Positions 1 to 12,798 of a stretch of DNA of 12,837 nt are shown piece by piece. Origin of the DNA: a virus. Its lineage: Duplodnaviria; Heunggongvirae; Uroviricota; Caudoviricetes. The stretch is taken from IMG/VR virus record IMGVR_UViG_643692022_000004; one strand, given 5' to 3'. Both the position numbers and the translations under genes were made by a program. The notes under the pieces are model-generated. The model had not been told where the DNA came from. It saw only the letters and a program-made list of their open reading frames with translations, and searched no databases. How positions within the stretch are numbered: position 1 is the stretch's first letter; the number at the start of each line of letters is the position of its first letter.

Positions 1-243
1 TCACTCACTTACCAGCCAGAATTCCGCTTCTTCGAACATTTCCTGAACGACGGCACTTATCCGCTCTTTCTCATGTTTGCTGGCATCCGTGTTAATCGCT
101 GGCAGTGTCATCATCGGTTTAACCCGGACATCTGCATCCGGGAAGATCCGGTGCACTCTCTTACTCAGTTCATCTAAAATGATCTCTTTTGCACCAGGCA
201 GACCATCAAAATTCCTTTTGTCATAAACGAGTTCCACGAACAT
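1..243 (-). CDS. DinI-family DNA-damage-inducible protein (80 aa)
   Basis: Complete minus-strand ORF: ATG at 243-241, TGA at 3-1, AAGAGG-like RBS about 7 nt upstream. The C-terminal half (ELSKRVHRIFPDADVRV...KERISAVVQEMFEEAEFWLVSE) resembles E. coli DinI as I recall it (…ELSRRIQYAFPD…KQRISEILQETWESADDWFVSE). Two LexA-box-like palindromes lie immediately upstream. Confidence 0.7.
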   Translation of the reverse strand: MFVELVYDKRNFDGLPGAKEIILDELSKRVHRIFPDADVRVKPMMTLPAINTDASKHEKERISAVVQEMFEEAEFWLVSE

Positions 244-260
244 TGCGCATTGCCTCTTAA

Positions 261-300
261 CTGGACGTATATACAGTTTTTATACTGTATTTCTAACCAG
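261..300. promoter_or_regulatory. Tandem LexA (SOS) operator-like boxes upstream of the DinI-like gene
   Basis: CTGgacgtatataCAG (261-276) and CTGTatttctaaCCAG (285-300) both fit CTG-N10-CAG / CTGT-N8-ACAG. The second, in context TACTGTATTTCTAACCAGTA, closely resembles the dinI SOS box as I recall it. They sit 18-57 bp upstream of the ATG at 243. Confidence 0.6.
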
Positions 301-459
301 TATTCAAGATATGGCACTTCGCATCTACTATTCAGATGCACGCCTACATCATCAATGATGTGAGAACGGTAGAGCTTGAGGATTATATTTTTGTACGCAT
401 AAGCAGACTGAATTCGCAATACGCGGGTTCAGATTCTTGATAAATTGCGCATTGTTCCT

Positions 460-557
460 GCCGGATGCGGGGTAAATGTTTTGTTCGTTCTGAAATGTCA
501 ATAAAATACAATGCATTTCAGGAGGTTAGTCGGCCTGATAAGCGTAGCGCATCAGGC
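460..557. repeat. REP-like extragenic palindromic sequences
   Basis: GCCGGATGCGG (460-470) and the imperfect palindrome GGCCTGATAAGCGTAGCGCATCAGGC (532-557) match the enterobacterial REP/PU motif family from memory; no convincing ORF covers them. Confidence 0.45.
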
Positions 558-963
558 AATTTGCATTTGTCATCAGTCGCAATCCGCATTACATGGTTCT
601 TTATTGTCACTACTCAAATTCGCTGTCGCCATTTTGCCGCCACAGCCCAAGAAAAAGGCTACGCTTTCGCGTATCCATTTGATTTATTTTATGAGTGCGA
701 AATATCGTCAGCACACACTTCTATGGCTCTGTCTTTCTTTACATTCCACCTACGCTCGGCAACTAACAGAAAGTGTTGGTATTGGCCTCATGGGAATTTC
801 TCGCTGTTTTTTCTGATGTTCCAGAGGAGCGTCATTGCCATGAGTCGTCTCCATGCTTTTAGACCCAATGAAAACGATGGTTCTTTTCGTTGGGCCTGAC
901 AATGGGCTTAAAAAGTTCAGAATAAATTAGTTTGCTTGAGATTTTGCGAGACAAATTGAAGGC

Positions 964-984
964 ACAAAAAAGCCCGCAGGGCTT
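964..984 (-). terminator. Intrinsic-terminator-like hairpin, probable displaced ancestral ssrA terminator
   Basis: On the minus strand AGCCC-tgc-GGGCT is followed by a 6-T run (966-971). It is a near-identical copy of the hairpin just downstream of the ssrA 3' end at 12368-12386. Confidence 0.4.
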
Positions 985-1044
985 GCGCCATGCAGGCTTT
1001 CAGGACTTCATCGGATGGCTCTGGTAATCACCGATGGAGAATTT

Positions 1045-1066
1045 TGGTGGGCTGGCGGAGTTTGAA
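1045..1066. other. Distal attachment site (attL-like): degenerate direct repeat of the ssrA 3' end
   Basis: tggtgggctggcggagtttgaa versus the ssrA 3' terminus tggtggagctggcgggagttgaacc at 12436-12460 (shared blocks tggtgg / gctggcgg / agtt / gaa), in the same orientation and again adjacent to a copy of the terminator hairpin. Confidence 0.45.
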
Positions 1067-1119
1067 TAAATATTGTATTGCTTTGATTTTTAATGATTTT
1101 ATTTAATTCAGTTTTTATG

Positions 1120-1141
1120 CGTATACCTAATCGTATACCAA
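1120..1141. promoter_or_regulatory. Putative integrase arm-type binding sites (alpha-proximal arm)
   Basis: cgtatacct-aat-cgtataccaa; the same two motifs recur four times, in both orientations, at 12272-12323 next to int and the ssrA core. Confidence 0.35.
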
Positions 1142-1200
1142 TGGCTGTAAGTTAATGTGAAATGAAAGCGTATTTTTATTTGGATTGATGCTATATCGTA

Positions 1201-1500
1201 CAGGAAAAAATTTTTTTTCGAAAGAACTGTTCACACTGTTCACCCTTTGATTTTCTCCTTTTATTTCATAGTGATAGGTGGTGAATAATGGGTGAAGGGT
1301 GAACATTCGATTCTTCACCTCCGGCATTCTGCCGGTGTGACTCATACCGGTGATTAATCCCCCGTACTGAAAATCGCACAGGGAGAAAAAAGTTTTTTTT
1401 GATTTGATTGTTCACACTGTTCACCTTTCATTTTTCTCTTTTAATTTCAGTGTGATAACGGGTGAACATACGGTGAAGGGTGAACAGTGGATTGTTCACC
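1201..1500. repeat. crr-like cis replication region: two ~120-bp direct repeats carrying TGTTCACC-type octamer iterons
   Basis: Unit 1 (~1201-1320) and unit 2 (~1381-1500) each begin with an A-run/T-run and contain tgttcaca, tgttcacc and inverted ggtgaaca copies (e.g. 1228-1244, 1298-1305, 1409-1425, 1461-1468, 1479-1486, 1493-1500). TGTTCACC is the recalled binding octamer of the P4 alpha C-terminal domain. Confidence 0.7.
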
Positions 1501-1518
1501 TTCGGGGAATTCAGGGAT

Positions 1519-1543
1519 AAAAAAAGACCGGCAGATGCCGGTC
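1519..1543 (-). terminator. Rho-independent terminator of the leftward operon, just after alpha
   Basis: On the minus strand a 7-bp stem GACCGGC/GCCGGTC (1526-1532 / 1537-1543) with a 4-nt loop is followed by a 7-T run (1519-1525), 8 nt after the alpha stop codon at 1551-1553. Confidence 0.55.
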
Positions 1544-1550
1544 AGGTGGG

Positions 1551-3884
1551 TCAGGCTGTTGCAGGGTCGTCACATTTTGGCAGCCAGTCGCCGTAGCTTT
1601 CCTCTTTCAGTGTCAGGTTGGTCTGTATCCCCTGTTTGGTATGGCGCTTCTCGTAATTCAGTCCGTATTCCTTCAGCATCACCGGCAGCCCCAGCCCGAA
1701 CATTTTCAGACTGAGTACATTCCGGTAGCCGTTTGCCTCCATGTAGGCCAGATAGGCGTGATAGAGGTATTTACGGTAATTACGCGGGATGATACTGGCG
1801 TTCCCCATATACATGCCGCTGGTCTGCGGCAGGGTTTCCAGATAGCCGATAAAATCAAACGTCGGGTCGGCATCCCGTTTGATGTTCAGTGCCTCGTCTG
1901 AGTTCTGCTGGGACTGAAGCAGTGACCGGGCGAGCATCGGGTCGCTGAACTTCTGCATCAGGTGACGCACGATGACCGCCAGCTCGCGGGTGATTTTGTC
2001 CTTAAGCTGCGGGTCGCGCTCCTGCGGGGCTATCTGTTCCGGGAAGTGAATAATCACCCGCCGGCGTGACACGCCGCCGCTGCGGTCGGTGAAGCGCATC
2101 GGGTTATTGTTCACGGCCAGAATCACCGCCGGGATGTGCGTGGAGTACGCATCCCGGTATTTCGGGTCAACGGACACTGCATCGCCGCCGGTGATGGCCT
2201 TGAGTCCGGCTCCGTCGCCGCTCCATTTTTCCTGGTCCGGCAGGCGTATCAGTGAGAAGCCAGTTAACGCGGCACGTTCACGCGGGGATTCCAGCGTCTC
2301 AATGGTGGCCGACGTGGCGTTATCCTCACCGGCCAGCAGGGTGGCTATTTCGGCCATGATACTTTTGCCGCTGCCGCCGGGACCGGTCACCTCCAGAAAG
2401 AGCTGCCAGTCGTAGCGGTTTGCCAGCACCATAAACAGTGCGGCCAGAATCACGTCGCGTTTTTCCGCACGACCACCGGCAGCACGGTCAAGCCAGCGCC
2501 AGAACGCGGGAGCGTGGGTTTCCAGCGTTTCACCGTCCACCGGCGGGGTGAAATCCACATCACACAGGGTACGCATCCAGTGTGACGGACTGTGCGGGTG
2601 GAACGTACCGTTCTGCGTGTCGAGCACGCCGTTACGAAAGCCAATCAGGCGGCGGGAGGGGGCTTCCTGCTGCGGAATAATCAGCTTCAGGGTGTCCACC
2701 ACGGAGGCCACCTTCCCGGAGGAGAATGGCGCGCGCAGACGCTGAAACAGCCCGGCCACATCCCGGGCAAAGTCCTGTGGCGGCAGCACCTTCCAGACAC
2801 CATTTTCATAGCGGGACAGAAGCTGGCCGTTGGCATCGACCGCGAGCGCCTCGCCGTAATGCTCATAGATACGCATGGCCTTTTCGCTGGTACTCATGGC
2901 GGAAAACTCCGCTTCGCTCATGGTGTCGAACGGGCTTTCAGCCGGTGGCCGGATGGCATCATAAATGGCCTTACGGGTGGCCTCCCCGCCGTACTGCGTG
3001 AAGGCATCATTCCAGTCACCGAAGACCGGCGGCAGGGCAACAACACCTTCACACGCATCTGCGGCTGCGGCGGCTTTTTTCTGGCCGTCACCGCTGAGGT
3101 CACGGTCAGCGGCAAGGACAATCTGACAGGCGGGGTGCTTCTGCCGGGCAAGGCTGGCCAGAGAAAGGAGGTTCACGGAAGAAAGCGCCACCATCACCGT
3201 TTCACCGGTCAGGTGATGCACGGTAAGTGCGGTCGCGTATCCCTCCGCTATCCACAGACGTTTTCCGGCCTGATTCTGTCCTTCAAGGATGTGACAGGTG
3301 CCCCTGACCTGTCCGCCTTTCAGGGTGCGCTTACGGCCGTCAGCACTGATTAACTGAAGGTTAACCAGTTCGCCGCGGTCGTCATACAGTGGCACCACAA
3401 GGTCACCGGCGCGCCAGCTCACGCCACCGGCTCTGTGTGTGCCGGTCAGCATCCGGCATTCCCGGCCGGGAAAGCCCTTGCGGGTCAGGTAGGCGTTACC
3501 GGTTCCGGGACGGGTTTTCGCCATCAGGGTTTGTGCCAGTGCGGCGGCGTTCTTCCGGGCAGCGTCTGTTTCAGCAACAGCGGCGGTCGTCACTGCCGGG
3601 TCAGCCGGGGGCAGGCTGCCGGTCACGGCAGCCACCTTTGCGGCCGCATCGGACGGGGAAACACCAAACACCTTTTCAACCAGTTTCAGGCCGTCACCGG
3701 CACCACACTGATTGCAGTACCAGGTGCCGCGCCCCTCCCTGTCATCAAAACGGAAGCGGTCACTCCCGCCACAGACCGGACAGGGCTGATGACGGTTCTT
3801 CAGCACCTGAATCCCCAGCGCCGGGAGGATACGCGGCCAGTGGCCGAGTGCATGGCTGACGGTGGCGGTTACGTTCATTTTCAT
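1551..3884 (-). CDS. alpha: P4 alpha-type primase-helicase (777 aa)
   Basis: ATG at 3884 with AAGGAG RBS. N-terminal zinc-binding primase motif CPVCGGSDRFRFDDREGRGTWYCNQCG, Walker A VTGPGGSGKS of a D5/SF3-type helicase, and length matching the recalled 777 aa of P4 alpha. Flanked by its cognate octamer iterons. Confidence 0.95.
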   Translation of the reverse strand: MKMNVTATVSHALGHWPRILPALGIQVLKNRHQPCPVCGGSDRFRFDDREGRGTWYCNQCGAGDGLKLVEKVFGVSPSDAAAKVAAVTGSLPPADPAVTTAAVAETDAARKNAAALAQTLMAKTRPGTGNAYLTRKGFPGRECRMLTGTHRAGGVSWRAGDLVVPLYDDRGELVNLQLISADGRKRTLKGGQVRGTCHILEGQNQAGKRLWIAEGYATALTVHHLTGETVMVALSSVNLLSLASLARQKHPACQIVLAADRDLSGDGQKKAAAAADACEGVVALPPVFGDWNDAFTQYGGEATRKAIYDAIRPPAESPFDTMSEAEFSAMSTSEKAMRIYEHYGEALAVDANGQLLSRYENGVWKVLPPQDFARDVAGLFQRLRAPFSSGKVASVVDTLKLIIPQQEAPSRRLIGFRNGVLDTQNGTFHPHSPSHWMRTLCDVDFTPPVDGETLETHAPAFWRWLDRAAGGRAEKRDVILAALFMVLANRYDWQLFLEVTGPGGSGKSIMAEIATLLAGEDNATSATIETLESPRERAALTGFSLIRLPDQEKWSGDGAGLKAITGGDAVSVDPKYRDAYSTHIPAVILAVNNNPMRFTDRSGGVSRRRVIIHFPEQIAPQERDPQLKDKITRELAVIVRHLMQKFSDPMLARSLLQSQQNSDEALNIKRDADPTFDFIGYLETLPQTSGMYMGNASIIPRNYRKYLYHAYLAYMEANGYRNVLSLKMFGLGLPVMLKEYGLNYEKRHTKQGIQTNLTLKEESYGDWLPKCDDPATA

Positions 3885-3898
3885 GGTGTTGTTCTCCT

Positions 3899-4219
3899 TC
3901 AGTGCAGTACCGGCGCTTTTATGTGACGGGCACAGAGTTCATCCATCACAACCAGCCCGAGAAAGGACAGCGACGGCGCGGCCTTCAGGGGGCCGGATTC
4001 CATTAAATCTTCCAGCAGGGCACAGGCTATCTGACGCCCTTTTTCCTCACCGTGCTGGTGCAGATAAAAGCCTTCCAGCTCAGCGGCGATGGCCGCCTCC
4101 AGTGACTCAAGGGTGAGATGCGGGTAGCGGTGCTGACGTTCGCACACGGTCAGCCAGGCACAGGCGACAGCGCGACGGTAAAGGGCAGCGCGTAAGACGG
4201 GCGGTAAGGGGGTTTTCAT
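3899..4219 (-). CDS. P4 orf106-like hypothetical protein (106 aa)
   Basis: ORF of the length and position of P4 orf106, between orf151 and alpha; its stop (3899-3901) overlaps the alpha RBS. Function unknown. Confidence 0.7.
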
Positions 4220-4354
4220 TTGTTTTCCTCCCTGTGACAGATGACTGCATTCCGTGCCGGTTGCATTAACTGATAAGGCATATCTGCGTCTCCTGAAGAC
4301 GTGCGTATCCCTGCGCGAATACGCACATTTAATTTTTCGGGTGTCGTTTTTTAA

Positions 4355-4810
4355 TTACAGATAATTGCGGTAACTGTTATCCGGGGTGATTTCCGGGTCA
4401 GGCTCCGTGCGGGGAATTTCCCGCCATTCCCGCGCCACCGGTGCCGCCCGGCTGACCGGAACAGGGTCCTGCGGGTAAATATCCAGATATTTCTCCCGCC
4501 ATTTCTGTAATTCCGGGTCTCCGGCCATTTCTTTCAGTACCGCATGCCGGTTTACGGGGCTGCGTTTAAACAGGTCAGGACGGTCACAGGTAAATTCCCG
4601 CAGAAAACGCCCCAGCGGGATGTCTGTGGTGCGCCCGTCAGCGAGGATACGCACAAGGATACTGAATTTACGGCGGTACGGGTTCCAGACAATGTCCGGG
4701 CAGCGGTACGGCATTTCCCACGGAATACCGTCTTCCAGAATGCCGACCACGGCCACATCGGGAAAACCGGCAGAACGGTAAATCTCACCAGGCTGGGGAA
4801 AATCAAACAT
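4355..4810 (-). CDS. P4 orf151-like hypothetical protein (151 aa)
   Basis: ORF of the length and position of P4 orf151; its ATG (4810-4808) overlaps the epsilon stop (4803-4805), suggesting translational coupling. Confidence 0.7.
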   Translation of the reverse strand: MFDFPQPGEIYRSAGFPDVAVVGILEDGIPWEMPYRCPDIVWNPYRRKFSILVRILADGRTTDIPLGRFLREFTCDRPDLFKRSPVNRHAVLKEMAGDPELQKWREKYLDIYPQDPVPVSRAAPVAREWREIPRTEPDPEITPDNSYRNYL

Positions 4811-5090
4811 GCGTCCTGTCTCCCCGGTCTTTCTGCTGGGCGAGAAAATCGCGGCACAGGCCTTTGGCTTTCAGCTCATTCAGCACAAAATCAATATCTT
4901 CATTCAGGTAGCTGAAAATATGCGGAATGTAGAGCTGATGCAGGCCGGAGAGTTCACGGTGAATCAAATCACCCCCAACAAACTGGGATACGGCGCTGGC
5001 GCGGTTGAGCTTATGGTAAGCCTCAATGCTGAGGTGTTCACGGGCGTCATGACGCGCTGAGACGGTCTGAGGGGCTTTTTTATTACGCAC
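4803..5090 (-). CDS. epsilon: Epsilon-like protein (95 aa; P4 anti-repressor that derepresses the helper prophage)
   Basis: Position immediately downstream of the immunity region and upstream of orf151/alpha, as in P4. The start appears to be GTG (5090-5088) preceded by a G-rich RBS. Identity rests on synteny and size, not on a recalled sequence. Confidence 0.6.
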
Positions 5091-5283
5091 GGGACACCCC
5101 CATCACTGGCAGACGGGCAGCAAGGGAGAGCACATAGTCACGGACAAGGGAACGGCGGGCGCTGCGTTCATCACCGGCGACGGTGCGAAGCATGCAGATA
5201 CGGGGATGACGGTCTGCGCGACGGACAGCCGCAAACACAAAGACAAATTCAGGGTGTGAAGGGGTAAGGGTTGTAGCCATGAT

Positions 5284-5402
5284 GGCAGCCTCCGTTAGAT
5301 AGCAGGTTACGCTATCGCCGGAGTTTCCACGCTCGATGGCGATAGCCCAGACGGGGGTGGAAATACCGGCTCTAACGGATACCGGCCAGCCCGGAGGCTG
5401 CC
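5284..5402 (-). ncRNA. Candidate CI-like immunity RNA (structured RNA in the P4 immunity region)
   Basis: Perfect 11-bp long-range inverted repeat ggcagcctccg (5284-5294) / cggaggctgcc (5392-5402) enclosing a perfect 9-bp hairpin gctatcgcc (5311-5319) / ggcgatagc (5338-5346). The locus lies between vis and epsilon where P4 encodes the CI RNA. Exact ends are uncertain. Confidence 0.3.
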
Positions 5403-5528
5403 CCGCCTGAGCTACCATTGACTCTGCGGCATAATGAGCGGACGCGGGCAGGATGCACGGAGTGCCATCTGCTCGACTGACCACACACCACACCATAATC
5501 TGGCGCTCTGTGGCGTTGATTGCGACAC

Positions 5529-5550
5529 AAAAAAAGACGCATGGCGCGTC
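5529..5550 (-). terminator. Candidate attenuator/terminator hairpin in the leader between the early promoter and the CI-like RNA
   Basis: On the minus strand the stem GACGC/GCGTC (5546-5550 / 5536-5540) with loop GCCAT is followed by a 7-T run (5529-5535). The stem is short, so the call is weak. Confidence 0.35.
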
Positions 5551-5613
5551 ATATGTCGCCGTTAGATTGCTCGGGTTTCCACGCCCGGCTGCCGATTTTG
5601 CGACAGCGGAAAA

Positions 5614-5643
5614 ACTATATCCGCAAATGCCGGAAAAAGGCAA
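5614..5643 (-). promoter_or_regulatory. Candidate sigma70 promoter (PLE-like) downstream of vis
   Basis: On the minus strand TTGCCT (5643-5638), an 18-bp spacer, then TATAGT (5619-5614), directed toward the immunity region and epsilon. Hexamer match by eye only. Confidence 0.25.
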
Positions 5644-5678
5644 GCCAGAAAAAGGGAGTTTTTGCAGAGCGGGCATCA

Positions 5679-5945
5679 TCATGCGTCGTACCCCCGTTTG
5701 CGTCCGGCAATGCGCCCGGCCATCCATGCGGTGACTTCAGAGTGCAGCCAGGCCACATTTTTACCGCCAAGACTCACCTGCGGCGGAAATTCCCCCTTAC
5801 GGATGAGTTCATAGATGGTCGAGCGTGACAGGCCGCACAGGTGCATCACTTCCGGAAGACGTAAAAAACGCTCCTGTGTGATGTCCGGCAGCGGCATCAG
5901 TGGCGTCACAGGGGCGGGAGACGGGGAAGAAAAAACAGCTTGCAT
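5679..5945 (-). CDS. vis: Vis-like excisionase/transcriptional regulator (88 aa; AlpA/Xis-type helix-turn-helix)
   Basis: 88-aa ORF with a GAGG RBS. Contains the AlpA/Vis-type motif [45 protein letters not shown]. Same size and position as P4 orf88 (vis) between the late promoter region and the immunity region. Confidence 0.8.
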
Positions 5946-6090
5946 CGGGCTACCTCGTTAATGTCCATACAGCACCGGATAAGTCCGTCCGGCTTCGGGT
6001 AGCGCTTTATTTTGTGAATATTTTCAGCAGACGCAACAGGGGGGATTTGTTCCGGCAGCCTTACAATGCTTGTGTATTTTTTGTTCATCT

Positions 6091-6120
6091 CCACTTAAAG
6101 TCATTTAAAGCCACTTAAAG
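6091..6120. promoter_or_regulatory. Three phased 10-bp direct repeats upstream of vis (candidate Vis/PLL operator)
   Basis: ccacttaaag / tcatttaaag / ccacttaaag are exactly contiguous with 10-bp periodicity, about 150 bp upstream of the vis start codon. Confidence 0.3.
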
Positions 6121-6224
6121 CAATTCGTAATTTTTATAGTGAAATACAAATCGTTTTTTCTTATTCATTCCCGGCGAATTAATAAAAACAAACAGTAATA
6201 AACAGCACAAAAAGCCCATCAACG

Positions 6225-6328
6225 GGTGAACAGTGGTGAACAGACGGTGAACAGTCATTACTGCGATTGTTCACCCTTTAACTTACTGTATTACTTATCT
6301 TTTTTCTTATGGTGAACAGAGGTGAACA
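6225..6328. repeat. ori-like replication origin: cluster of six GGTGAACA/TGTTCACC octamer iterons
   Basis: ggtgaaca at 6225-6232, 6235-6242, 6246-6253, 6311-6318, 6321-6328 and tgttcacc at 6268-6275, followed by an A/T-rich stretch (6331-6350). Same octamer as in crr, and located between vis and sid as in P4. Confidence 0.65.
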
Positions 6329-6408
6329 GTAAAATATAAAAAAAATAAACAGTAAGCCGTTTTTTCCAGCGACCTTTTCCTGGCTTGCCGGTGTGAGGAT
6401 GAGTCTCC

Positions 6409-6426
6409 TGTGTCAGGGCTGGCACA
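6409..6426 (+). promoter_or_regulatory. Psid-type late promoter activator site (TGT-N12-ACA dyad for Delta/Ogr-family activators)
   Basis: TGTgtcagggctggcACA, centred roughly 80 bp upstream of the sid ATG, consistent with the recalled P2/P4 late-promoter architecture (dyad centred near -55). Confidence 0.5.
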
Positions 6427-6498
6427 TCTGCAATGCGTCGTGTTGTTGTCCGGTGTACGTCACAATTTTCTCAACCTGAAGTGACGAGGAGCCGGAAA

Positions 6499-7233
6499 AT
6501 GTCTGACAACACCATCCCTGAATATCTGCAACCCGCACTGGCACAACTGGAAAAGGCCAGAGCCGCCCACCTTGAGAACGCCCGACTGATGGATGAGACC
6601 GTCACGGCCATTGAACGGGCAGAGCAGGAAAAAAATGCGCTGGCGCAGGCCGACGGAAACGACGCTGACGACTGGCGCACGGCCTTTCGTGCAGCCGGTG
6701 GTGTCCTGAGCGACGAGCTGAAACAGCGCCACATTGAGCGCGTGGCACGCCGGGAGCTGGTACAGGAATATGACAATCTGGCCGTGGTGCTGAATTTCGA
6801 ACGTGAACGCCTGAAAGGGGCGTGTGACAGCACGGCCACCGCCTACCGGAAGGCACATCATCACCTTCTGAGTCTGTATGCAGAGCATGAGCTGGAACAC
6901 GCCCTGAATGAAACCTGTGAGGCGCTTGTCCGGGCAATGCATCTGAGCATTCTGGTACAGGAAAATCCGCTCGCCAACACCACCGGCCATCAGGGCTACG
7001 TCGCACCGGAAAAGGCTGTCATGCAGCAGGTGAAATCATCGCTGGAACAGAAAATTAAACAGATGCAAATCAGCCTCACCGGCGAGCCGGTTCTCCGGCT
7101 GACCGGACTGTCAGCGGCAACACTTCCTCACATGGATTATGAGGTGGCAGGCACACCGGCACAGCGCAAGGTGTGGCAGGACAAAATAGACCAGCAGGGA
7201 GCAGTGCTTAAGGCCAGAGGACTGCTGTCATGA
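6499..7233 (+). CDS. sid: Sid-like capsid size determination (external scaffold) protein (244 aa)
   Basis: ATG at 6499 preceded by AGGAG (6486-6490); the track ORF begins 66 nt further upstream but lacks an RBS. The product starts MSDNTIPEYL and is 244 aa, the recalled length of P4 Sid. First gene of the sid-delta-psu operon. Confidence 0.85.
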   Translation: MSDNTIPEYLQPALAQLEKARAAHLENARLMDETVTAIERAEQEKNALAQADGNDADDWRTAFRAAGGVLSDELKQRHIERVARRELVQEYDNLAVVLNFERERLKGACDSTATAYRKAHHHLLSLYAEHELEHALNETCEALVRAMHLSILVQENPLANTTGHQGYVAPEKAVMQQVKSSLEQKIKQMQISLTGEPVLRLTGLSAATLPHMDYEVAGTPAQRKVWQDKIDQQGAVLKARGLLS

Positions 7234-7730
7234 TTTACTGCCCGTCGTGTGGACATGTTGCTCACACCCGCCGCGCACATTTCATGGACGATGGCACCAA
7301 GATAATGATTGCACAGTGCCGGAATATTTATTGCTCTGCGACATTTGAAGCGAGTGAAAGCTTTTTCTCTGACAGTAAAGATTCAGGAATGGAATACATT
7401 TCAGGCAAACAGAGATACCGCGATTCACTGACGTCAGCCTCCGGCAGTATGAAACGCCCGAAAAGAATGCTTGTTACCGGATATTGTTGTCGGAGATGTA
7501 AAGGCCTTGCACTGTCAAGAACATCGCGGCGTCTGTCTCAGGAAGTCACCGAGCGTTTTTATGTGTGCACGGATCCGGGCTGTGGTCTGGTGTTTAAAAC
7601 GCTTCAGACCATCAACCGCTTCATTGTCCGCCCGGTCACGCCGGACGAACTGGCAGAAATCCTGCATGAAAAACAGGAACTGCCGCCAGTACGCTTAAAA
7701 ACACAATCATATTCGCTGCGTCTGGAATGA
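7230..7730 (+). CDS. delta: Delta-like late transcriptional activator (166 aa, tandem Ogr-type zinc-finger domains)
   Basis: Start overlaps the sid stop (ATGA at 7230-7233). Two Cys4 modules: CPSCGH...CRNIYC and CRRCKG...CTDPGC. Length equals the recalled 166 aa of P4 Delta. Confidence 0.9.
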   Translation: MIYCPSCGHVAHTRRAHFMDDGTKIMIAQCRNIYCSATFEASESFFSDSKDSGMEYISGKQRYRDSLTSASGSMKRPKRMLVTGYCCRRCKGLALSRTSRRLSQEVTERFYVCTDPGCGLVFKTLQTINRFIVRPVTPDELAEILHEKQELPPVRLKTQSYSLRLE

Positions 7731-7803
7731 GGGCTGCCGGTTAACACCGGCCGTCGCCGCACACCGTATTTTTATTCTTCACCATGATGAGAAAGAGATA
7801 ACG

Positions 7804-8376
7804 ATGGAAAGCACAGCCTTACAGCAGGCCTTTGACACCTGTCAGAATAACAAAGCAGCATGGCTGCAACGCAAAAATGAGCTGGCTGCGGCCGAACAGG
7901 AATATCTGCGGCTTCTGTCCGGGGAAGGCAGAAACGTCAGTCGCCTGGACGAATTACGCAATATTATCGAAGTCAGAAAATGGCAGGTGAATCAGGCTGC
8001 CGGTCGTTATATTCGTTCGCATGAAGCCGTTCAGCACATCAGCATCCGCGACCGGCTGAATGATTTTATGCAGCAGCACGGCACAGCACTGGCGGCCACA
8101 CTGGCACCGGAGCTGATGGGCTACAGTGAGCTGACGGCCATTGCCCGAAACTGTGCCATACAGCGTGCCACAGATGCCCTGCGTGAAGCCCTTCTGTCCT
8201 GGCTTGCGAAGGGGGAAAAAATTAATTATTCCGCACAGGATAGCGACATTTTAACGACCATCGGATTCAGGCCTGACGCGGCTTCGGTGGATGACAGCCG
8301 TGAAAAATTCACTCCTGCGCAGAACATGATTTTTTCGCGTAAAAGTGCGCAACTGGCATCACATCAGTCTGTGTAA
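7804..8376 (+). CDS. psu: Psu-like polarity suppression / capsid decoration protein (190 aa)
   Basis: 190-aa ORF starting MESTALQQAFDTCQNN, matching my recollection of P4 Psu in sequence start and length; last gene before cos. Confidence 0.9.
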   Translation: MESTALQQAFDTCQNNKAAWLQRKNELAAAEQEYLRLLSGEGRNVSRLDELRNIIEVRKWQVNQAAGRYIRSHEAVQHISIRDRLNDFMQQHGTALAATLAPELMGYSELTAIARNCAIQRATDALREALLSWLAKGEKINYSAQDSDILTTIGFRPDAASVDDSREKFTPAQNMIFSRKSAQLASHQSV

Positions 8377-8411
8377 AACTCCCCGAAAATCCGCCCGTTT
8401 TTACTGAAAAA

Positions 8412-8450
8412 AGCCATGCATCGATAAGGTGCATGGCTTTGCATGCGTTT
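8412..8450 (+). terminator. Candidate terminator of the late operon
   Basis: 8-bp stem AGCCATGC/GCATGGCT (8412-8419 / 8431-8438) followed by a T-containing tail (ttgcatgcgtttt), about 35 nt after the psu stop. Confidence 0.4.
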
Positions 8451-8540
8451 TCCTGCCTCATTTTCTGCAAACCGCGCCATTCCCGGCGCGGTCTGAGCGT
8501 GTCAGTGCAACTGCATTAAAACCGCCCCGCAAAGCGGGCG

Positions 8541-8559
8541 GGCGAGGCGGGGAAAGCAC
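8541..8559. other. cos site (P2/P4-type 19-nt cohesive end)
   Basis: GGCGAGGCGGGGAAAGCAC matches the P2/P4 cohesive-end sequence as I recall it; preceded by a GC-rich hairpin CCGCCCCGC-aaa-GCGGGCGG (8522-8543). Confidence 0.65.
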
Positions 8560-8575
8560 TGCGCGCTTAAGTATA

Positions 8576-11026
8576 TTATTGTTTTGCACTTAAAATATTA
8601 TCAACAACTCGTTTCACACTTTCGAAAGATGACTCTCCTGTTTTAAAAGATTCGTTCATGTCAAAATAACTAGGTTTATTTACAAAACTACTCCAAGCAT
8701 TTGACAGGTAATCTTTGAATGCAATGGAGCGTTTATATCGATCCTCAATATTGAATGACTCACATGAAGCTCGCATATTATTGACTACTTCAGGATTAAA
8801 TATAGGAGTGTCAAATACCATTGCATCAAGATAGGCGAAATCACTTATCCATCGCTTGAGATGATACAAACCAATAGATGTGATTCTAAATTTCGTTGGC
8901 ATTTCTCCTATTAAACCTGTTTCGTCCTCTTCAAATGTAAACCTCTGTGAGGTCTCTATTAATTTTTTGTTTGTCGTTCTTCTTAGCGCATTTTCAGTCT
9001 GCTCAGGAATAAAACCAAGGCTTTGCATTTCATCTATAATGGACTTGGTTAGACAGAATCCATCCCGGTCCTGAAGCTCTTTTTTTTCTGATAATAGCGC
9101 CATTATTAATGGTACTAAAAAGTGTTCTGATATATCTGCAAAAGAAACATCAAAAATATTCATGGCAAGAGATGTGTTTGGATCAAAGTGTGAATATTCA
9201 CCAAGTAAAGCTTGTTTAGAAAATTCATGTACAGGAATTATATATCTACCTTCTTCTTCGTAAGTTCGAATTATTTTATCCGCTTCAACATTTGGGCTGC
9301 CTATAAAACCAGTAATAAAGCTAAGCGCTTGTCTTACATTGCCTCCCGTAATGTTTTCAATAAACTCTCCTAGTGATTTATTTTTTCTTAGAGATTGAAG
9401 CAATACTCTGATAAATGAAGAAAGATTGTCTATATGGATTCTAACAAATTCGGCATGTTCAAGAGGTATCTTTCCTTCAGACATTTCGAGAGCAAACTGA
9501 AGTCGTTTATCAAGAACTTGATCTATCCTTGGTGGTGCAATTGTAAAGACCTTGTGGGGATAAGCAGTTAATGCACCTGATGCTTTTGATTTAAAGAATG
9601 TCTGAGGTCTGACAGATATAAATACTAAAGCATTCCAATCTTTTGCTAACTCCTGAGAAATAACAAATGCTCGCTGTTGCGTTTCGAAATCTCGTTGATC
9701 AGCATTATCTAGACAAATAATTACTTGCTTTTTAGTTTGTTTTGATAAATGAGCGATTGAGTTTTTTAAATGTTCATCTTTAGCATCTAATTTTTCCGCC
9801 AACATCTCAAGTTGTTTTTCCTCATATCGTTCTCTATTTGAATCTCGTAAACTCCCCCAGATTCCTTTTGAAAACCTTTGAATATCTCTTGAATATACGC
9901 CTTTAACAAATTTCATTTCGGTTATATCACAGGAGTATTTATTGTCTAGTTGTTGCTCTATCTCATTTAATATAAATTTTTGAAGATTATTAGCTAATGT
10001 TGCTTTAGAGCCTAAATCTATATATAAATAAATTGCCTCTTTAAATTCTTTGAATGCACTTGAATAAATTAAATTTTTTACAAATGACGTTTTACCAACA
10101 CCAACATCACCAATTAATACAATTGGACGCTTTGATAGAGCCTCGGCCATAATACTTGGATCTAAAGTTTGCTCTTTACGATCAGGTTTAACAGAAGTTA
10201 TATGTGGAGATAATTCATTGTCACTAAATAGAGCAGCATATCTGGCTTGAAGCATTTCTTTACTTAGCAAAGCATATTTTGAAAGGGCACCACTTTCGCA
10301 GTAGCATTTTTGGTAAAAAATCTCTTCAATTTCATTGCTTTCAAGAGCATCTTGAATTATTAATTCTGATATTTGTCTTAATGAGGTCTGTATATCACTA
10401 GCATAGCGTATTTTAGGATACATTGATAAATAGGTTGATAATTTATTTGGAATACCACTTATGTCAGAGGTAAGATACTTAATTAAACGTTGTTCTTTCA
10501 CACCGTAATATGAAAGCATATTCCATGCTAAAGAAAAGTTCCGTAATAAAGAATCCAAACTGTCAAAAACTAAAGCTTTTCCCTCTAAAGGCGAACAGCC
10601 ATTTTGAGTGCTTGCAATAAATGATATAAATTGATGTCCATTAGTGGCTATTGCAATTGGTGTTCCTCGTGATGAACAATATTTTTGTACCTGTATAATT
10701 GCGTCTTTTAAATCGTCATTTGATCTTAAGAGAGTTGGTATGTCGATTATGTTCTTATTTGATAAACCTGCTGGTATTTCAAAAGTCCGGCCTTCTCTTT
10801 TCGCTTCAACAATAACTTGCCGTGGCTTTCCTAATTCATAATCTGTAAAAGTATGATCATGATAGTTTTCAACTTCTATTTGATCATCAGGCCAGCTAAG
10901 AACGTCAATAATTATTTTGTTTATTATATGATGCCTAGTCTGGGCTTCATTTCTTATCTTGGCGCTGTCACTATATTCGTTTACTAATTCTCTTAATAAA
11001 TTTTCGGCTTGTATCATTGTAACCAT
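8576..11026 (-). CDS. Candidate anti-phage defence protein: N-terminal PD-(D/E)xK nuclease (HsdR-N/Mrr-like) fused to a P-loop NTPase with a C-terminal domain of unknown function (816 aa)
   Basis: Uninterrupted 816-codon ORF, ATG at 11026 with GGAGAG RBS 7 nt upstream. Residues ~26-76: NEAQTRHHIINKII...IEVE...DYEL...VIVEAKREG, the E/D/ExK pattern of HsdR-N/Mrr-type nucleases. Walker A GDVGVGKTS (~306-314), extended Walker B VIICLDNADQ (~435-444), and GGNVRQAL (~561-568) resembling an AAA+/STAND sensor motif. No SF2 helicase motifs. Sits in the P4 psu/cos-int slot; strongly AT-rich against a GC-rich backbone. Confidence 0.85.
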   Translation of the reverse strand: MVTMIQAENLLRELVNEYSDSAKIRNEAQTRHHIINKIIIDVLSWPDDQIEVENYHDHTFTDYELGKPRQVIVEAKREGRTFEIPAGLSNKNIIDIPTLLRSNDDLKDAIIQVQKYCSSRGTPIAIATNGHQFISFIASTQNGCSPLEGKALVFDSLDSLLRNFSLAWNMLSYYGVKEQRLIKYLTSDISGIPNKLSTYLSMYPKIRYASDIQTSLRQISELIIQDALESNEIEEIFYQKCYCESGALSKYALLSKEMLQARYAALFSDNELSPHITSVKPDRKEQTLDPSIMAEALSKRPIVLIGDVGVGKTSFVKNLIYSSAFKEFKEAIYLYIDLGSKATLANNLQKFILNEIEQQLDNKYSCDITEMKFVKGVYSRDIQRFSKGIWGSLRDSNRERYEEKQLEMLAEKLDAKDEHLKNSIAHLSKQTKKQVIICLDNADQRDFETQQRAFVISQELAKDWNALVFISVRPQTFFKSKASGALTAYPHKVFTIAPPRIDQVLDKRLQFALEMSEGKIPLEHAEFVRIHIDNLSSFIRVLLQSLRKNKSLGEFIENITGGNVRQALSFITGFIGSPNVEADKIIRTYEEEGRYIIPVHEFSKQALLGEYSHFDPNTSLAMNIFDVSFADISEHFLVPLIMALLSEKKELQDRDGFCLTKSIIDEMQSLGFIPEQTENALRRTTNKKLIETSQRFTFEEDETGLIGEMPTKFRITSIGLYHLKRWISDFAYLDAMVFDTPIFNPEVVNNMRASCESFNIEDRYKRSIAFKDYLSNAWSSFVNKPSYFDMNESFKTGESSFESVKRVVDNILSAKQ

Positions 11027-11049
11027 CGAAAACTCTCCAAATGAAAAAA

Positions 11050-12249
11050 TTAAAAGGATAAAGATTTATGAACAAAAGAACTCCACCAGTTCATTAAATT
11101 CTTCCTTTGTTCTAAGTAAGTAGAACGGTTATAAGCTTTTCTGACTTCATTCTTATCGCTATGAGCTAAGGCTGATTCTATTACATCAGCGTTAAATTCG
11201 GCTTCATTCATTGCAGTGCTGGCAATAGAACGTAAACCATGAGCAACGAGTTTTCCACCATATCCTATCCTTTTTAAAGCGGCATTTGCAGTTTGGCTAT
11301 TCATGGGTTTTTGTGGATCATTTCTACTTGGGAAAACATACTCACGATGAGCACTAATAGTTTTCATAACTTCAAGAATATCTAAAGCCTTAGGTGATAA
11401 AGGTACAATATGTTCGCGCTTAGCTTTCATCCTTTCAGCAGGAATTCTCCAGAGTTTTGCATCAAAATCGATCTCCTTCCATTGAGTGCCTGAAGCCTCT
11501 GAAGGGCGCACAAGGGTGAGTAGTTGCCATTCAATCAGACAACGGGTCTGCACAGAAAGATTTGACATAGATAAAGAATACATAAGTTTCGGTAATTCTT
11601 CAGGTCGTAGTGTTGGCATGTTTTTCTTTTTAGGTTTCTCAAATGCCATACCAATACCTGATGCAGGATTAGCGTCAATTAAGCCAGTATTAACGGCATA
11701 AATCATAATTTCATTAATACGTTGTACCAAACGACGAACAGTTTCAAGTGCTCCACGAGCTTTAATTGGTTCTAAGGTTTCAATTAATGTACGAGCTTTT
11801 ATTTTCTGAACAGGAATTTCACCGATAGTAGGGAAAATATCTCTCTCTAAGGAGCGCCATACATCCTTTGCGTAATCAGGTGTTACGTTGTTTCTTTTTA
11901 TGGCAAACCATTTTGAGGCAACGTTTGAAAAAATACTATCTTCCGCAATCTGTTGCTGTACAGTGACTTGCTCACTGTATATCTGTGGATCAATACCTCG
12001 GGCCAGCAAGGAAAGATACTCAGCACGAGTGTTTCTGGCTTCAGCCAGAGAAAGGGCAGGGAAAGACCCTAAACCAATCATGGTTCGTTGTTTTGTTACT
12101 GGTTTCTGGTATCGGAAACGCCACAGCTTCCTACCGTTCGTTTTTACGAGTAGAAAAAGTCCATTACCATCATGTAGCGTTAGATCCTTTGCAGTTGCTT
12201 TAGCCCGTGATAGTTCAGTGTTAGTAAGAGGGCGTGTTGTACGTGACAC
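11050..12249 (-). CDS. int: Tyrosine integrase (P4-family, 399 aa), ssrA-specific
   Basis: N-terminus typical of P4-family integrases (...RPLTNTELSRAKA...LHDGNGLFLLVKTNGRKLWRFRY...), C-terminal catalytic region with HGLR and a tyrosine in KAYNRSTY. Apparent GTG start at 12249 with a GAGGT RBS. Directly adjacent to the ssrA 3' end. Confidence 0.9.
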   Translation of the reverse strand: MSRTTRPLTNTELSRAKATAKDLTLHDGNGLFLLVKTNGRKLWRFRYQKPVTKQRTMIGLGSFPALSLAEARNTRAEYLSLLARGIDPQIYSEQVTVQQQIAEDSIFSNVASKWFAIKRNNVTPDYAKDVWRSLERDIFPTIGEIPVQKIKARTLIETLEPIKARGALETVRRLVQRINEIMIYAVNTGLIDANPASGIGMAFEKPKKKNMPTLRPEELPKLMYSLSMSNLSVQTRCLIEWQLLTLVRPSEASGTQWKEIDFDAKLWRIPAERMKAKREHIVPLSPKALDILEVMKTISAHREYVFPSRNDPQKPMNSQTANAALKRIGYGGKLVAHGLRSIASTAMNEAEFNADVIESALAHSDKNEVRKAYNRSTYLEQRKNLMNWWSSFVHKSLSF

Positions 12250-12271
12250 GATTATCCTACCTCAGAGAGAA

Positions 12272-12323
12272 TTGGTATACGCTTTTAGGTATACATCTTA
12301 CCGTATACCTAAACGTATACCAA
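12272..12323. promoter_or_regulatory. Cluster of four arm-type integrase-binding-like repeats between int and the att core
   Basis: ttggtatacg (12272-12281), aggtatac (12287-12294), cgtatacct (12302-12310), cgtataccaa (12314-12323): two motifs in inverted then direct orientation, and the same pair recurs at 1120-1141. Overlaps the expected int promoter. Confidence 0.4.
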
Positions 12324-12367
12324 TAATCACTGGATTTAGCGGGATATTCTCGGACAACTGCGGACAC

Positions 12368-12386
12368 AAAAAAGCCCACAGGGCTT
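12368..12386 (-). terminator. Rho-independent terminator downstream of ssrA, supplied by the element
   Basis: On the minus strand AGCCC-tgt-GGGCT is followed by a 6-T run (12368-12373), about 50 nt beyond the tmRNA 3' CCA end. Confidence 0.5.
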
Positions 12387-12435
12387 GTGCCATGCGGGCT
12401 TTCAGGATTTTTCCGGACATATCCGGAAGAGCAAG

Positions 12436-12798
12436 TGGTGGAGCTGGCGGGAGTTGAACCCGCGTCCGAAATTCCTACATCCTCGGTACTACATGCTTAG
12501 TCAGTCTTTACATTCGCTTGCCAGCTGCGGACGGACACGCCACTAACAAACTAGCCTGATTAAGTTTTAACGCTTCAACCCCAGGCAGGGCTTCCACGCG
12601 ATCTCTTTTGGGTTTGACCTCTCTTGATCCCCGTCCTAAGAGCGGAGGCTAGGGAGAGAGGGCTCTAAGCAGGTTATTAAGCTGCTAAAGCGTAGTTTTC
12701 GTCGTTTGCGACTATTTTTTGCGGCTTTTTACGAGGCCAACCGCCCCTCGGCATGCACCTTGGGTTTCGCAAATCCCGTCGAATCCAGAATCAGCCCC
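12436..12798 (-). ncRNA. ssrA: tmRNA (transfer-messenger RNA)
   Basis: Reverse complement begins GGGGCTGATTCTGGATTCGACGGG and ends ...GGTTCAACTCCCGCCAGCTCCACCA; contains the tag reading frame GCAAACGACGAAAACTACGCTTTAGCAGCTTAA (ANDENYALAA). 363 nt, matching E. coli ssrA as recalled. Confidence 0.95.

What the first reader, a model, noticed from the sequence alone, without database searches (positions are those of the whole stretch)
964..1066. Degenerate ssrA 3'-end copy plus a duplicated terminator hairpin mark the distal attachment site
The ssrA 3' terminus tggtggagctggcgggagttgaacc (12436-12460) has an imperfect copy tggtgggctggcggagtttgaa at 1045-1066 in the same orientation. In both places a near-identical AGCCC-N3-GGGCT hairpin with a T-run lies on the same side of the core (966-984 and 12368-12386). 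This is the arrangement expected if the element's attP carried an ssrA-3'-end mimic with its own terminator, and it defines the element as about 11.4 kb. The divergence of the distal copy suggests an old or poorly reversible insertion.
Basis: seen in the sequence. Interest (0 to 1): 0.5.

Follow-up and report, generated by a model that had tools for sequence, protein, structure and literature searches.

The report
Far end of ssrA-inserted P4-like prophage
This is the far attachment site of an 11.4-kb P4-type satellite prophage inserted in the tmRNA gene of Escherichia fergusonii, lying next to a leftover terminator from an older island; the layout is a known pattern, including a one-base loss that would probably cripple tmRNA if the prophage left.

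Summary
1045-1066 is an indel-bearing copy of the ssrA 3' end, and 962-1008 is 91% identical to 12365-12410, which includes a terminator hairpin. The window is E. fergusonii ATCC 35469 (CU928158.2).

Three other E. fergusonii genomes lack the element. In them an intact ssrA joins window 1044->244 directly. The boundaries are therefore right and the insert is 11,392 bp.

The interpretation needs correcting in two places.
- The distal terminator was not brought in by this element. It is the pre-existing ssrA terminator, itself a relic of a CP4-57-type island (P' arm plus the integrase ATG).
- The divergence does not measure age. Two of the three indels are constant features of the element's P-arm core. 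The third is the missing T encoding tmRNA U357. It lies on the host side and is polymorphic even within one clone: CP066085.1 equals the window over 22 kb except for that T.

The same lesion is published for CP4-57 and CP4So, where excision leaves an inactive tmRNA lacking U357. This is a new member of a known kind. The only moderately novel point is that T loss and nested deletions recur exactly beside the crossover.

The parts
12436..12798 (-). ssrA (tmRNA), intact, tag ANDENYALAA
   Evidence: ARAGORN; Rfam RF00023, 295.8 bits
12436..12458 (-). attL core, equal to the true ssrA 3' end. The A at 12442 encodes U357. The exact 8-mer GCTGGCGG at 12443-12450 is shared with attR and is the inferred crossover.
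   Evidence: The position of the crossover is inferred from published excision products of CP4-57 and CP4So (PMC10107115 Table 1, PMC5148205).
12250..12435 (-). P' arm of the satellite. It holds a hairpin at 12411-12428 and a terminator stem at 12370-12403 with a U-run at 12364-12369; this terminator now serves ssrA. Arm-type CGTATACC sites lie at 12274-12281 (-), 12302-12309 and 12314-12321.
   Evidence: The arm-site-to-core distance is 112 nt, against 113 nt in P4.
11050..12249 (-). Tyrosine integrase of the P4 family, in the IntA (ssrA-specific) clade
   Evidence: Pfam Arm-DNA-bind_3 + Phage_int_M + Phage_integrase. Identity is 59% to K-12 IntA, 36% to P4 Int and 82% to the E. coli MY504 ssrA satellite Int.
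1045..1066 (-). attR core: TGGTGG (host side; the A that encodes U357 is missing between 1050 and 1051), then GCTGGCGG at 1051-1058 (crossover 8-mer), then AGTTTGAA at 1059-1066 (element-side P-arm mimic of the T-loop region, carrying 2 indels)
1067..1142 (.). P arm of the satellite, with two direct arm-type CGTATACC sites at 1120-1127 and 1132-1139. They lie 54 nt from the core, as in P4.
   Evidence: The sequence is constant in all loci that carry the 22-mer.
835..1044 (-). Host-side relic of an older CP4-57-type island P' arm. It holds a hairpin at 1009-1036, a terminator stem at 968-1001 with a U-run at 962-967, GGGCC-type arm repeats, and the integrase start codon at 841-839 followed by loss of homology. 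In strains without the satellite this is the normal ssrA downstream region.
1051..12442 (.). The inserted P4-like satellite prophage, 11,392 bp. It carries crr at 1204-1505, alpha primase at 1551-3884, AlpA/Vis at 5679-5945, C4 RNA at 5335-5422, delta at 7230-7730, psu at 7804-8376, cos at 8541-8559, an 816-aa ATPase cargo gene at 8576-11026, and int.
   Evidence: Its absence from L029-L031 is shown.

Best explanation
1045-1066 is attR of an intact, probably mobile P4-type satellite prophage (11,392 bp). Its IntA-clade tyrosine integrase targets the 3' end of ssrA.

How the sites relate:
- The element's attP has the P4 layout: int, arm sites, ~112 nt, core, 54 nt, arm sites, crr.
- The core's P side (AGTTTGAA plus the 8-mer) is an imperfect mimic of the tmRNA T-loop/stem.
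- Its P' side carries the last 7 nt of ssrA plus a two-hairpin terminator module.
- Strand exchange occurs inside the block shared by attL and attR. By analogy with CP4-57 and CP4So, it occurs in GCTGGCGG.
- After integration, ssrA is therefore finished and terminated by element DNA (12364-12442). The former ssrA tail, TGGTGG(A), and its former terminator are pushed 11.4 kb away, to 962-1050.

Origin of the distal terminator: that former terminator is itself the P' arm of an older CP4-57-type island, of which only about 210 bp and the int ATG remain. That is why the two hairpins look duplicated.

The missing base: after integration, the displaced tail lost the T that encodes U357, the G3.U357 alanine identity pair. 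Excision of this copy is therefore predicted to leave ssrA-deltaU357, an inactive tmRNA, with the relic terminator behind it. This is what has been shown experimentally for CP4-57 and CP4So.

Shown here: the boundaries, the empty site, the relic homology, the arm-site geometry, and the T/deltaT polymorphism.
Inferred: the exact crossover for this integrase, the outcome of excision, and the cause of the T loss.
For: Identity of the window: it is an exact substring of CU928158.2, which is E. fergusonii ATCC 35469.

Empty sites: L029, L030 and L031 read ...CCGCCAGC T CCACCA aaattctccatcgg..., which equals window 1044->244. L031 aligns to window 1-1066 with no mismatches and only the 3 indels.

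Left flank of the 22-mer: it falls in at least four classes (the native E. coli flank, the CP4-57 P' arm, and two others), while the right side is constant. An E. coli empty site built from the class A flank plus ssrA is found at 100% identity and coverage in many genomes.

P4 geometry and arm sites. The crr is 95% identical to P4.

Relic: collinear with K-12 ssrA->intA.

attR variants that keep the T:
- E. fergusonii L034 differs from the window by that single base in 22,334 nt.
- E. coli MCJCHV-1 versus MY504: 14,283 nt with 1 gap.
- A class C flank with T is seen in L045.

Published work: excision of CP4-57 and CP4So leaves CGCCAGC-CCACCA and an inactive tmRNA (PMC10107115 Table 1; PMC5148205). 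The K-12 attR has the same ACTCCGCCAGC-CCACCA.
Against: - No free or circular attP of this element was found in phage, plasmid, viral-contig or metagenome collections. attP is therefore reconstructed, not observed.
- The crossover position for this particular integrase (59% identical to IntA) is taken by analogy. The comparative data alone confine it only to the 15-nt block TGGTGGAGCTGGCGG.
- The deltaT form of the 22-mer is by far the commoner one in every flank class. That would also fit a deltaT carried on the element.
Confidence: 0.85

Rival explanations
1. The element's attP carried both the ssrA-end mimic and the terminator now seen at the distal end. The distal copy has since diverged because the insertion is old.
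For: The two terminator regions are 91% identical over 46 nt and lie on the same side of the cores.
Against: - The distal terminator is present, adjacent to an intact ssrA, in E. fergusonii strains that lack the element.
- In E. coli the same element's attR abuts unrelated flanks that lack this hairpin.
- Two of the indels are invariant in all copies. The third varies within a clone.
- All element genes are intact, and crr is 95% identical to P4.
Confidence: 0.03
2. All three indels, including the missing T, are carried by the element. Its integrase crosses over 3' of U357, in CCACCA. Excision would then restore an intact ssrA, and the deltaT would travel with the satellite to new sites.
For: - The identical deltaT 22-mer is found next to four unrelated flank classes and in Kosakonia.
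- deltaT is the majority form.
- Natural E. coli empty sites almost never carry the deltaT357 scar.
Against: - attR copies with T exist for the same element in the same site, in otherwise identical genomes.
- Larger deletions (4-5 nt) remove most of CCACCA yet start at the same point.
- Only 6 bp (CCACCA) would be shared between this attP and attB.
- The related IntA and CP4So integrases leave deltaU357 in the chromosome (PMC10107115, PMC5148205).
- Lab strain DTU-1 shows that scar.
Confidence: 0.1
3. The 22-nt similarity is a chance match, and the true element boundary lies elsewhere.
For: The 25-mer alone scores only about 4 sd above shuffles.
Against: - The empty-site junction falls exactly here.
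- The arm-site geometry is conserved with P4.
- The same junction is seen in dozens of genomes.
Confidence: 0.01

Closest known systems
CP4-57 cryptic prophage of E. coli K-12 (IntA/AlpA; attR annotated as pseudogene psaA)
   Same: - Same target, the ssrA 3' end.
- The integrase is 59% identical.
- An AlpA-family excisionase gene is present.
- attR reads ACTCCGCCAGC-CCACCA, with the same lost T.
- The P' arm carries a homologous two-hairpin terminator.
- Published excision gives tmRNA deltaU357 and a switch to ArfA (PMC10107115).
   Different: - The element here has a P4 satellite backbone (alpha, crr, psu, delta, cos, C4 RNA) instead of the 22-kb CP4-57 cargo.
- The arm-type sites differ (CGTATACC versus GGGCC-type).
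- Here a CP4-57-type P' arm survives only as a 210-bp relic on the host side of attR.
Bacteriophage P4 attP (leuX tRNA-Leu 3' end, 20-bp core)
   Same: - Same order: int, arm repeats, core, arm repeats, crr, alpha.
- Nearly identical spacings: 113/54 nt in P4 versus 112/54 nt here.
- crr is 95% identical.
- In both, the core runs from the CCA end toward the T-loop, and the P side mimics the T-loop imperfectly.
   Different: - The target gene differs (ssrA, not leuX).
- The integrase is only 36% identical.
- The P' arm carries a terminator module for the target gene.
CP4So of Shewanella oneidensis, and the P4-integrase ssrA islands listed from Williams 2003 (Stit11X, Ype11X, VPI, Stm27X)
   Same: The displaced ssrA ends read CGCCAGC-CCACCA, ----CCA or -----CA (PMC10107115 Table 1). 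Excision of CP4So was shown by sequencing to delete that U and abolish tmRNA function (PMC5148205). The same deletion series is seen here among relatives.
   Different: The hosts and cargo differ. I could not read Williams 2003 (not held), so I do not know whether the E. fergusonii element or the tandem-relic layout is listed there.

Membership tests
Tyrosine-integrase element integrated at the 3' end of a t(m)RNA gene (attL/attR pair) | Integrase gene next to the regenerated target gene | tested here: met
   int at 11050-12249 lies 186 nt from the ssrA 3' end.
Tyrosine-integrase element integrated at the 3' end of a t(m)RNA gene (attL/attR pair) | Displaced fragment of the target gene's 3' end at the far boundary, in the same orientation | tested here: met
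   1045-1066 versus 12436-12458.
Tyrosine-integrase element integrated at the 3' end of a t(m)RNA gene (attL/attR pair) | An empty site in related genomes joins the flanks exactly at the repeat | tested here: met
   L029-L031 in E. fergusonii. The E. coli class A empty site is.
Tyrosine-integrase element integrated at the 3' end of a t(m)RNA gene (attL/attR pair) | Arm-type integrase-binding repeats in both arms | tested here: met
   CGTATACC occurs 5 times against 0.15 expected, at P4-like distances. Binding itself was not tested.
Tyrosine-integrase element integrated at the 3' end of a t(m)RNA gene (attL/attR pair) | Excision to a circle with attP, and regeneration of attB | not testable with these tools
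   No free attP was found in four collections. This needs PCR or read-level data.
P4-like satellite phage | Alpha primase-helicase with crr/ori TGTTCACC repeats | tested here: met
   A 777-aa alpha. crr at 1204-1505 is 95% identical to P4.
P4-like satellite phage | psu, delta, C4 immunity RNA and a P2-type cos site | tested here: met
   Psu and Ogr_Delta by Pfam. Rfam C4 at 76 bits. cos is exact at 8541-8559; the cos sequence was recalled from memory.
ssrA 'phage regulatory switch' (CP4-57 / CP4So type) | attR copy lacks the T encoding U357 while attL keeps it | tested here: met
   It is polymorphic in the same clone.
ssrA 'phage regulatory switch' (CP4-57 / CP4So type) | Excision transfers the deletion into ssrA and inactivates tmRNA | not testable with these tools
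   Inferred from PMC10107115 and PMC5148205. Lab E. coli strain DTU-1 carries the scar.
ssrA 'phage regulatory switch' (CP4-57 / CP4So type) | AlpA-family excisionase encoded by the element | tested here: met
   5679-5945, Pfam Phage_AlpA, E = 7e-21. Its function was not tested.
ssrA 'phage regulatory switch' (CP4-57 / CP4So type) | Host has the ArfA back-up ribosome-rescue system | not tested
   arfA lies outside the window and was not looked for.

The most novel reading that the evidence does not exclude
Loss of the U357-encoding T, and the nested 4-5-nt deletions that start at the same point, may not be random decay of an unused gene fragment. They may be a recurrent lesion made at the integrase's strand-exchange point in attR.

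The lesion arises fast enough to differ between sublines of one strain. It converts a freely reversible insertion into one whose loss costs the host its tmRNA. That would be a recombinase-generated, addiction-like lock for ssrA islands and satellites.
Probability: 0.3. Interest if true: 0.6.

Novelty: new member of a known kind. Interest (0 to 1): 0.3.

Why it matters
For annotation, the finding fixes three things:
- the exact ends of a complete P4-type satellite in the E. fergusonii type strain;
- that the segment next to it (835-1044) is a relic of an earlier island, not part of the satellite;
- that the ssrA terminator in this species is island-derived.

Biologically, it adds a satellite phage to the set of ssrA elements whose excision is predicted to switch off trans-translation.

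The one point that goes beyond textbook knowledge is the comparative pattern. The same single base beside the crossover is present or absent in otherwise identical genomes of two species, and larger deletions are anchored at the same spot. This makes the origin of these 'regulatory switches' testable as a recombinase-linked hot spot rather than slow decay.

Tried and rejected
- Early model, later dropped. I first thought all three indels were element-borne, with the crossover in TGGTGG, because the 22-mer is identical beside four flank classes. I dropped this after finding attR copies that keep the T in E. coli, in E. fergusonii and beside a class C flank, and after reading the published excision products.
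- Overlap spanning the T. A model in which the overlap spans the T and heteroduplex segregation toggles T/deltaT was considered. It cannot be excluded, but it does not explain the 4-5-nt deletions.
- Free attP. Searches of phages, plasmids, IMG/VR and metagenome contigs found none.
- Genome-contig scan for the 22-mer. It gave only 5 hits. One was useful (Kosakonia). One was a stray enterobacterial contig filed under Streptomyces. The rest were unrelated coding sequence.
- E. coli complete genomes contain no copy of the window's left flank. This was explained once the source proved to be E. fergusonii.
- Papers not held. Williams 2003, Kirby 1994 and Wang 2009 could not be read. Their content is cited only through PMC10107115 and PMC5148205.
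- LexA box. An exact search upstream of dinI found nothing.

Full report
**What the window is.** The window is an exact substring of CU928158.2, the complete genome of Escherichia fergusonii ATCC 35469. It holds ssrA (tmRNA) at 12436-12798 on the minus strand. Immediately downstream of the ssrA 3' end lies a complete P4-type satellite prophage. Its parts are:
- an integrase at 11050-12249;
- an 816-aa ATPase cargo gene;
- an exact P2/P4-type cos site at 8541-8559;
- psu, delta, an AlpA/Vis-family gene and the C4 immunity RNA;
- a 777-aa alpha primase;
- a crr region that is 95% identical to phage P4.

**Checking the observation.** The distal copy tggtgggctggcggagtttgaa is at 1045-1066, in the orientation of the ssrA 3' end. 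It differs from that end by three single-base indels. On its own this is only modestly above chance: score 27, against a shuffle maximum of 25. The neighbouring similarity is unambiguous. 962-1008 matches 12365-12410 at 42/46 identical, with score 72 against 23 +/- 2 in shuffles. Both copies contain a minus-strand terminator-like hairpin with a T-run. Each is preceded by a second hairpin, and the two terminators differ by wobble-compatible changes.

**Empty-site comparison.** A look-up of the DinI-like protein at the left edge of the window returned other E. fergusonii genomes. In three of them (L029-L031) an intact ssrA ending ...CCGCCAGC-T-CCACCA is followed directly by aaattctccatcgg..., which is window 1044 running down to 244. 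L031 aligns to window 1-1066 with no mismatches and only the three indels of the 22-mer. The inserted DNA is 11,392 bp (1051 to 12442, counting from the shared 8-mer GCTGGCGG). In E. coli the same satellite family sits at ssrA with a different, native flank. An empty site built from that flank plus ssrA occurs at 100% identity in many genomes.

**Anatomy of the attachment sites.** CGTATACC arm-type repeats occur five times against 0.15 expected. Two are direct copies at 1120-1139. Two direct copies and one inverted copy lie at 12274-12321. Their distances to the core are 54 nt and 112 nt. These match the 54 and 113 nt between the annotated arm repeats and the 20-bp leuX core of phage P4. The 22-mer thus occupies exactly the position of the P4 attP core. 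The integrase is 36% identical to P4 Int, 59% to K-12 IntA (CP4-57) and 82% to the integrase of the E. coli ssrA satellite. The element is a P4 backbone carrying an IntA-type, ssrA-specific int/att module.

**Which differences belong to whom.** The sequence to the right of the 22-mer (the element's P arm) is constant in every locus that carries it. The left flank falls into at least four unrelated classes:
- the native E. coli flank;
- the CP4-57-type P' arm, as in this window;
- two others.

The extra T and the missing G in ...GCTGGCGG-AGTTTGAA are present in all copies. The missing G also occurs in the attR of K-12 CP4-57 itself. Both are therefore fixed features of the attP core, not decay.

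The missing A between 1050 and 1051 is the complement of the T that encodes U357, and it behaves differently. A second assembly, CP066085.1 (L034), is identical to the window's genome over 22,334 nt except that this base is present. Independent short-read assemblies of the same clone split between the two forms: T in L035, L039, L041 and L042; deltaT in L036, L037, L038 and L040. In E. coli, strains MCJCHV-1 (T) and MY504 (deltaT) are identical over 14,283 nt except for the same base. In a 60-record spread of 259 E. coli matches, the class A flank shows T, deltaT, delta4 and delta5 forms. A class C flank shows T (L045), deltaT and a larger deletion. In E. fergusonii L027, another element beside the same relic has CGCCAGC----CCA. 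All deletions start immediately on the host side of GCTGGCGG.

**Where the crossover is.** With the T present, attL and attR share TGGTGGAGCTGGCGG, so comparative data confine the exchange to these 15 nt. Published work narrows it. Excision of CP4-57 in K-12 and of CP4So in Shewanella leaves CGCCAGC-CCACCA in the chromosome. That is, only the U357 deletion is transferred and not the element-side indels, and the resulting tmRNA is inactive (PMC10107115 Table 1 and text; PMC5148205). This places the exchange in CCGCCAGC/GCTGGCGG. Consistent with this, the full-length scar (ssrA-deltaT357 joined to the empty class A flank) is found in a single complete E. coli genome, the laboratory strain DTU-1. 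About 2,880 genomes match the empty-site query over at least 80% of its length, and the next-ranked full-length matches differ from the scar by one gap, i.e. they retain the T. For the integrase in this window, the crossover position is an inference by homology.

**The distal terminator.** Window 1066->835 is collinear with the K-12 ssrA 3' end -> intA region. The shared features are the first hairpin, the terminator, the GGGCC-type arm repeats and the integrase ATG (841-839 on the minus strand). Homology stops about three codons into the gene. In E. coli Z1323PEC0014 the same junction is followed by a full-length (pseudo)integrase, which makes it a tandem array. In E. fergusonii this relic is what follows ssrA when the satellite is absent. 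The hairpin at 968-1001 is therefore the former ssrA terminator, inherited from an earlier island of the same integrase family. The two hairpins resemble each other because both are P' arms of related elements, not because the satellite duplicated anything.

**How it most likely works.** Integration exchanged strands in the 8-mer. ssrA is now completed by the element's TCCACCA and terminated by the element's hairpin module. The old tail and old terminator sit at 962-1050. The element encodes Int and an AlpA/Vis-type excisionase, has cos, and looks fully mobile with a P2-type helper. In the CU928158 subline the displaced tail has lost the T. Excision should therefore rebuild ssrA without U357, the G.U alanine identity pair, and should put the relic terminator back behind it. 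By analogy, this would switch ribosome rescue to ArfA. In the CP066085-type subline, excision should be scar-free.

**The cause of the recurrent T loss is unknown.** In two species it is the only difference across 14-22 kb, and larger deletions are anchored at the same bond. This argues for a site-specific process at the integrase cleavage point, or a strong bias, rather than slow neutral decay. This is an inference, at about 0.3 probability.

**Comparison and novelty.** The arrangement is the known one for P4-family islands at ssrA: CP4-57, CP4So, and the 11-kb islands Stit11X and Ype11X cited from Williams 2003 in PMC10107115. I found no description of the E. fergusonii element itself. I therefore file it as a new member of a known kind, of low to moderate interest.

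**Limits.**
- No free attP was found.
- Williams 2003, Kirby 1994 and Wang 2009 were not readable.
- No experiment on this integrase exists in what I could read.

Noticed in passing
window 1050/1051; L034, L035, L039, L041, L042 versus L033, L036-L038, L040; L023 versus L001: The single base encoding tmRNA U357 in attR is present or absent in otherwise identical genomes. In E. fergusonii the comparison covers 22,334 nt with 0 mismatches; in E. coli it covers 14,283 nt with 0 mismatches. Relatives show nested 4-5-nt deletions that start at the same bond (L024, L025, L026, L027).
   Followed up: partly
window 620-705: There is a third minus-strand terminator-like hairpin at 660-673. The flank at about 620-688 is homologous to a sequence that directly abuts an ssrA 3'-end copy in L004, L005 and L009. 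In E. fergusonii L032 another island ends at window ~684. Window 689-705 (tttcgcactcataa in the ssrA sense) may be a third, badly decayed ssrA end, which would make the locus a stack of three island scars.
   Followed up: partly
window 689-834: This segment lies between the CP4-57-type relic and the older flank. It has no match in complete E. coli genomes at megablast sensitivity. It includes a 21-nt stretch at 726-746 that is 81% like ssrA 12495-12515. Its origin is unknown.
   Followed up: no
window 8576-11026 (-): An 816-aa P-loop/STAND-like ATPase sits between cos/psu and int, the usual cargo hotspot of P4-like satellites. It has only weak Pfam AAA hits and a marginal PADLOC mad8 hit. It may be an uncharacterised anti-phage gene.
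   Followed up: partly
window 5335-5422 and 5530-5607 (-): Rfam C4 antisense RNA (76 bits) and isrK (72 bits) both match. This is the P4 immunity region.
   Followed up: no
window 1-243 (-) and 283-302: A DinI-family gene lies at the window edge. Upstream, TACTGTATTTCTAACCAGTA is one mismatch from a LexA box; an exact CTGT-N8-ACAG search found none. REP-like palindromes lie at about 455-575.
   Followed up: partly
E. coli DTU-1, NZ_CP026612.1 4278394-4278475: This is the only complete E. coli genome with a full-length perfect match to ssrA-deltaT357 joined to the empty native flank. It is a laboratory strain, which is consistent with the published CP4-57 excision scar.
   Followed up: no
L021 (NZ_JBEYYR010000100.1, filed as Streptomyces sp.) and L018 (Akkermansia MAG contig): L021 is a 1.1-kb contig carrying the enterobacterial 22-mer with a CP4-57-like P arm. 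It looks like contamination in a Streptomyces assembly. The L018, L019 and L020 matches are unrelated coding sequence.
   Followed up: no
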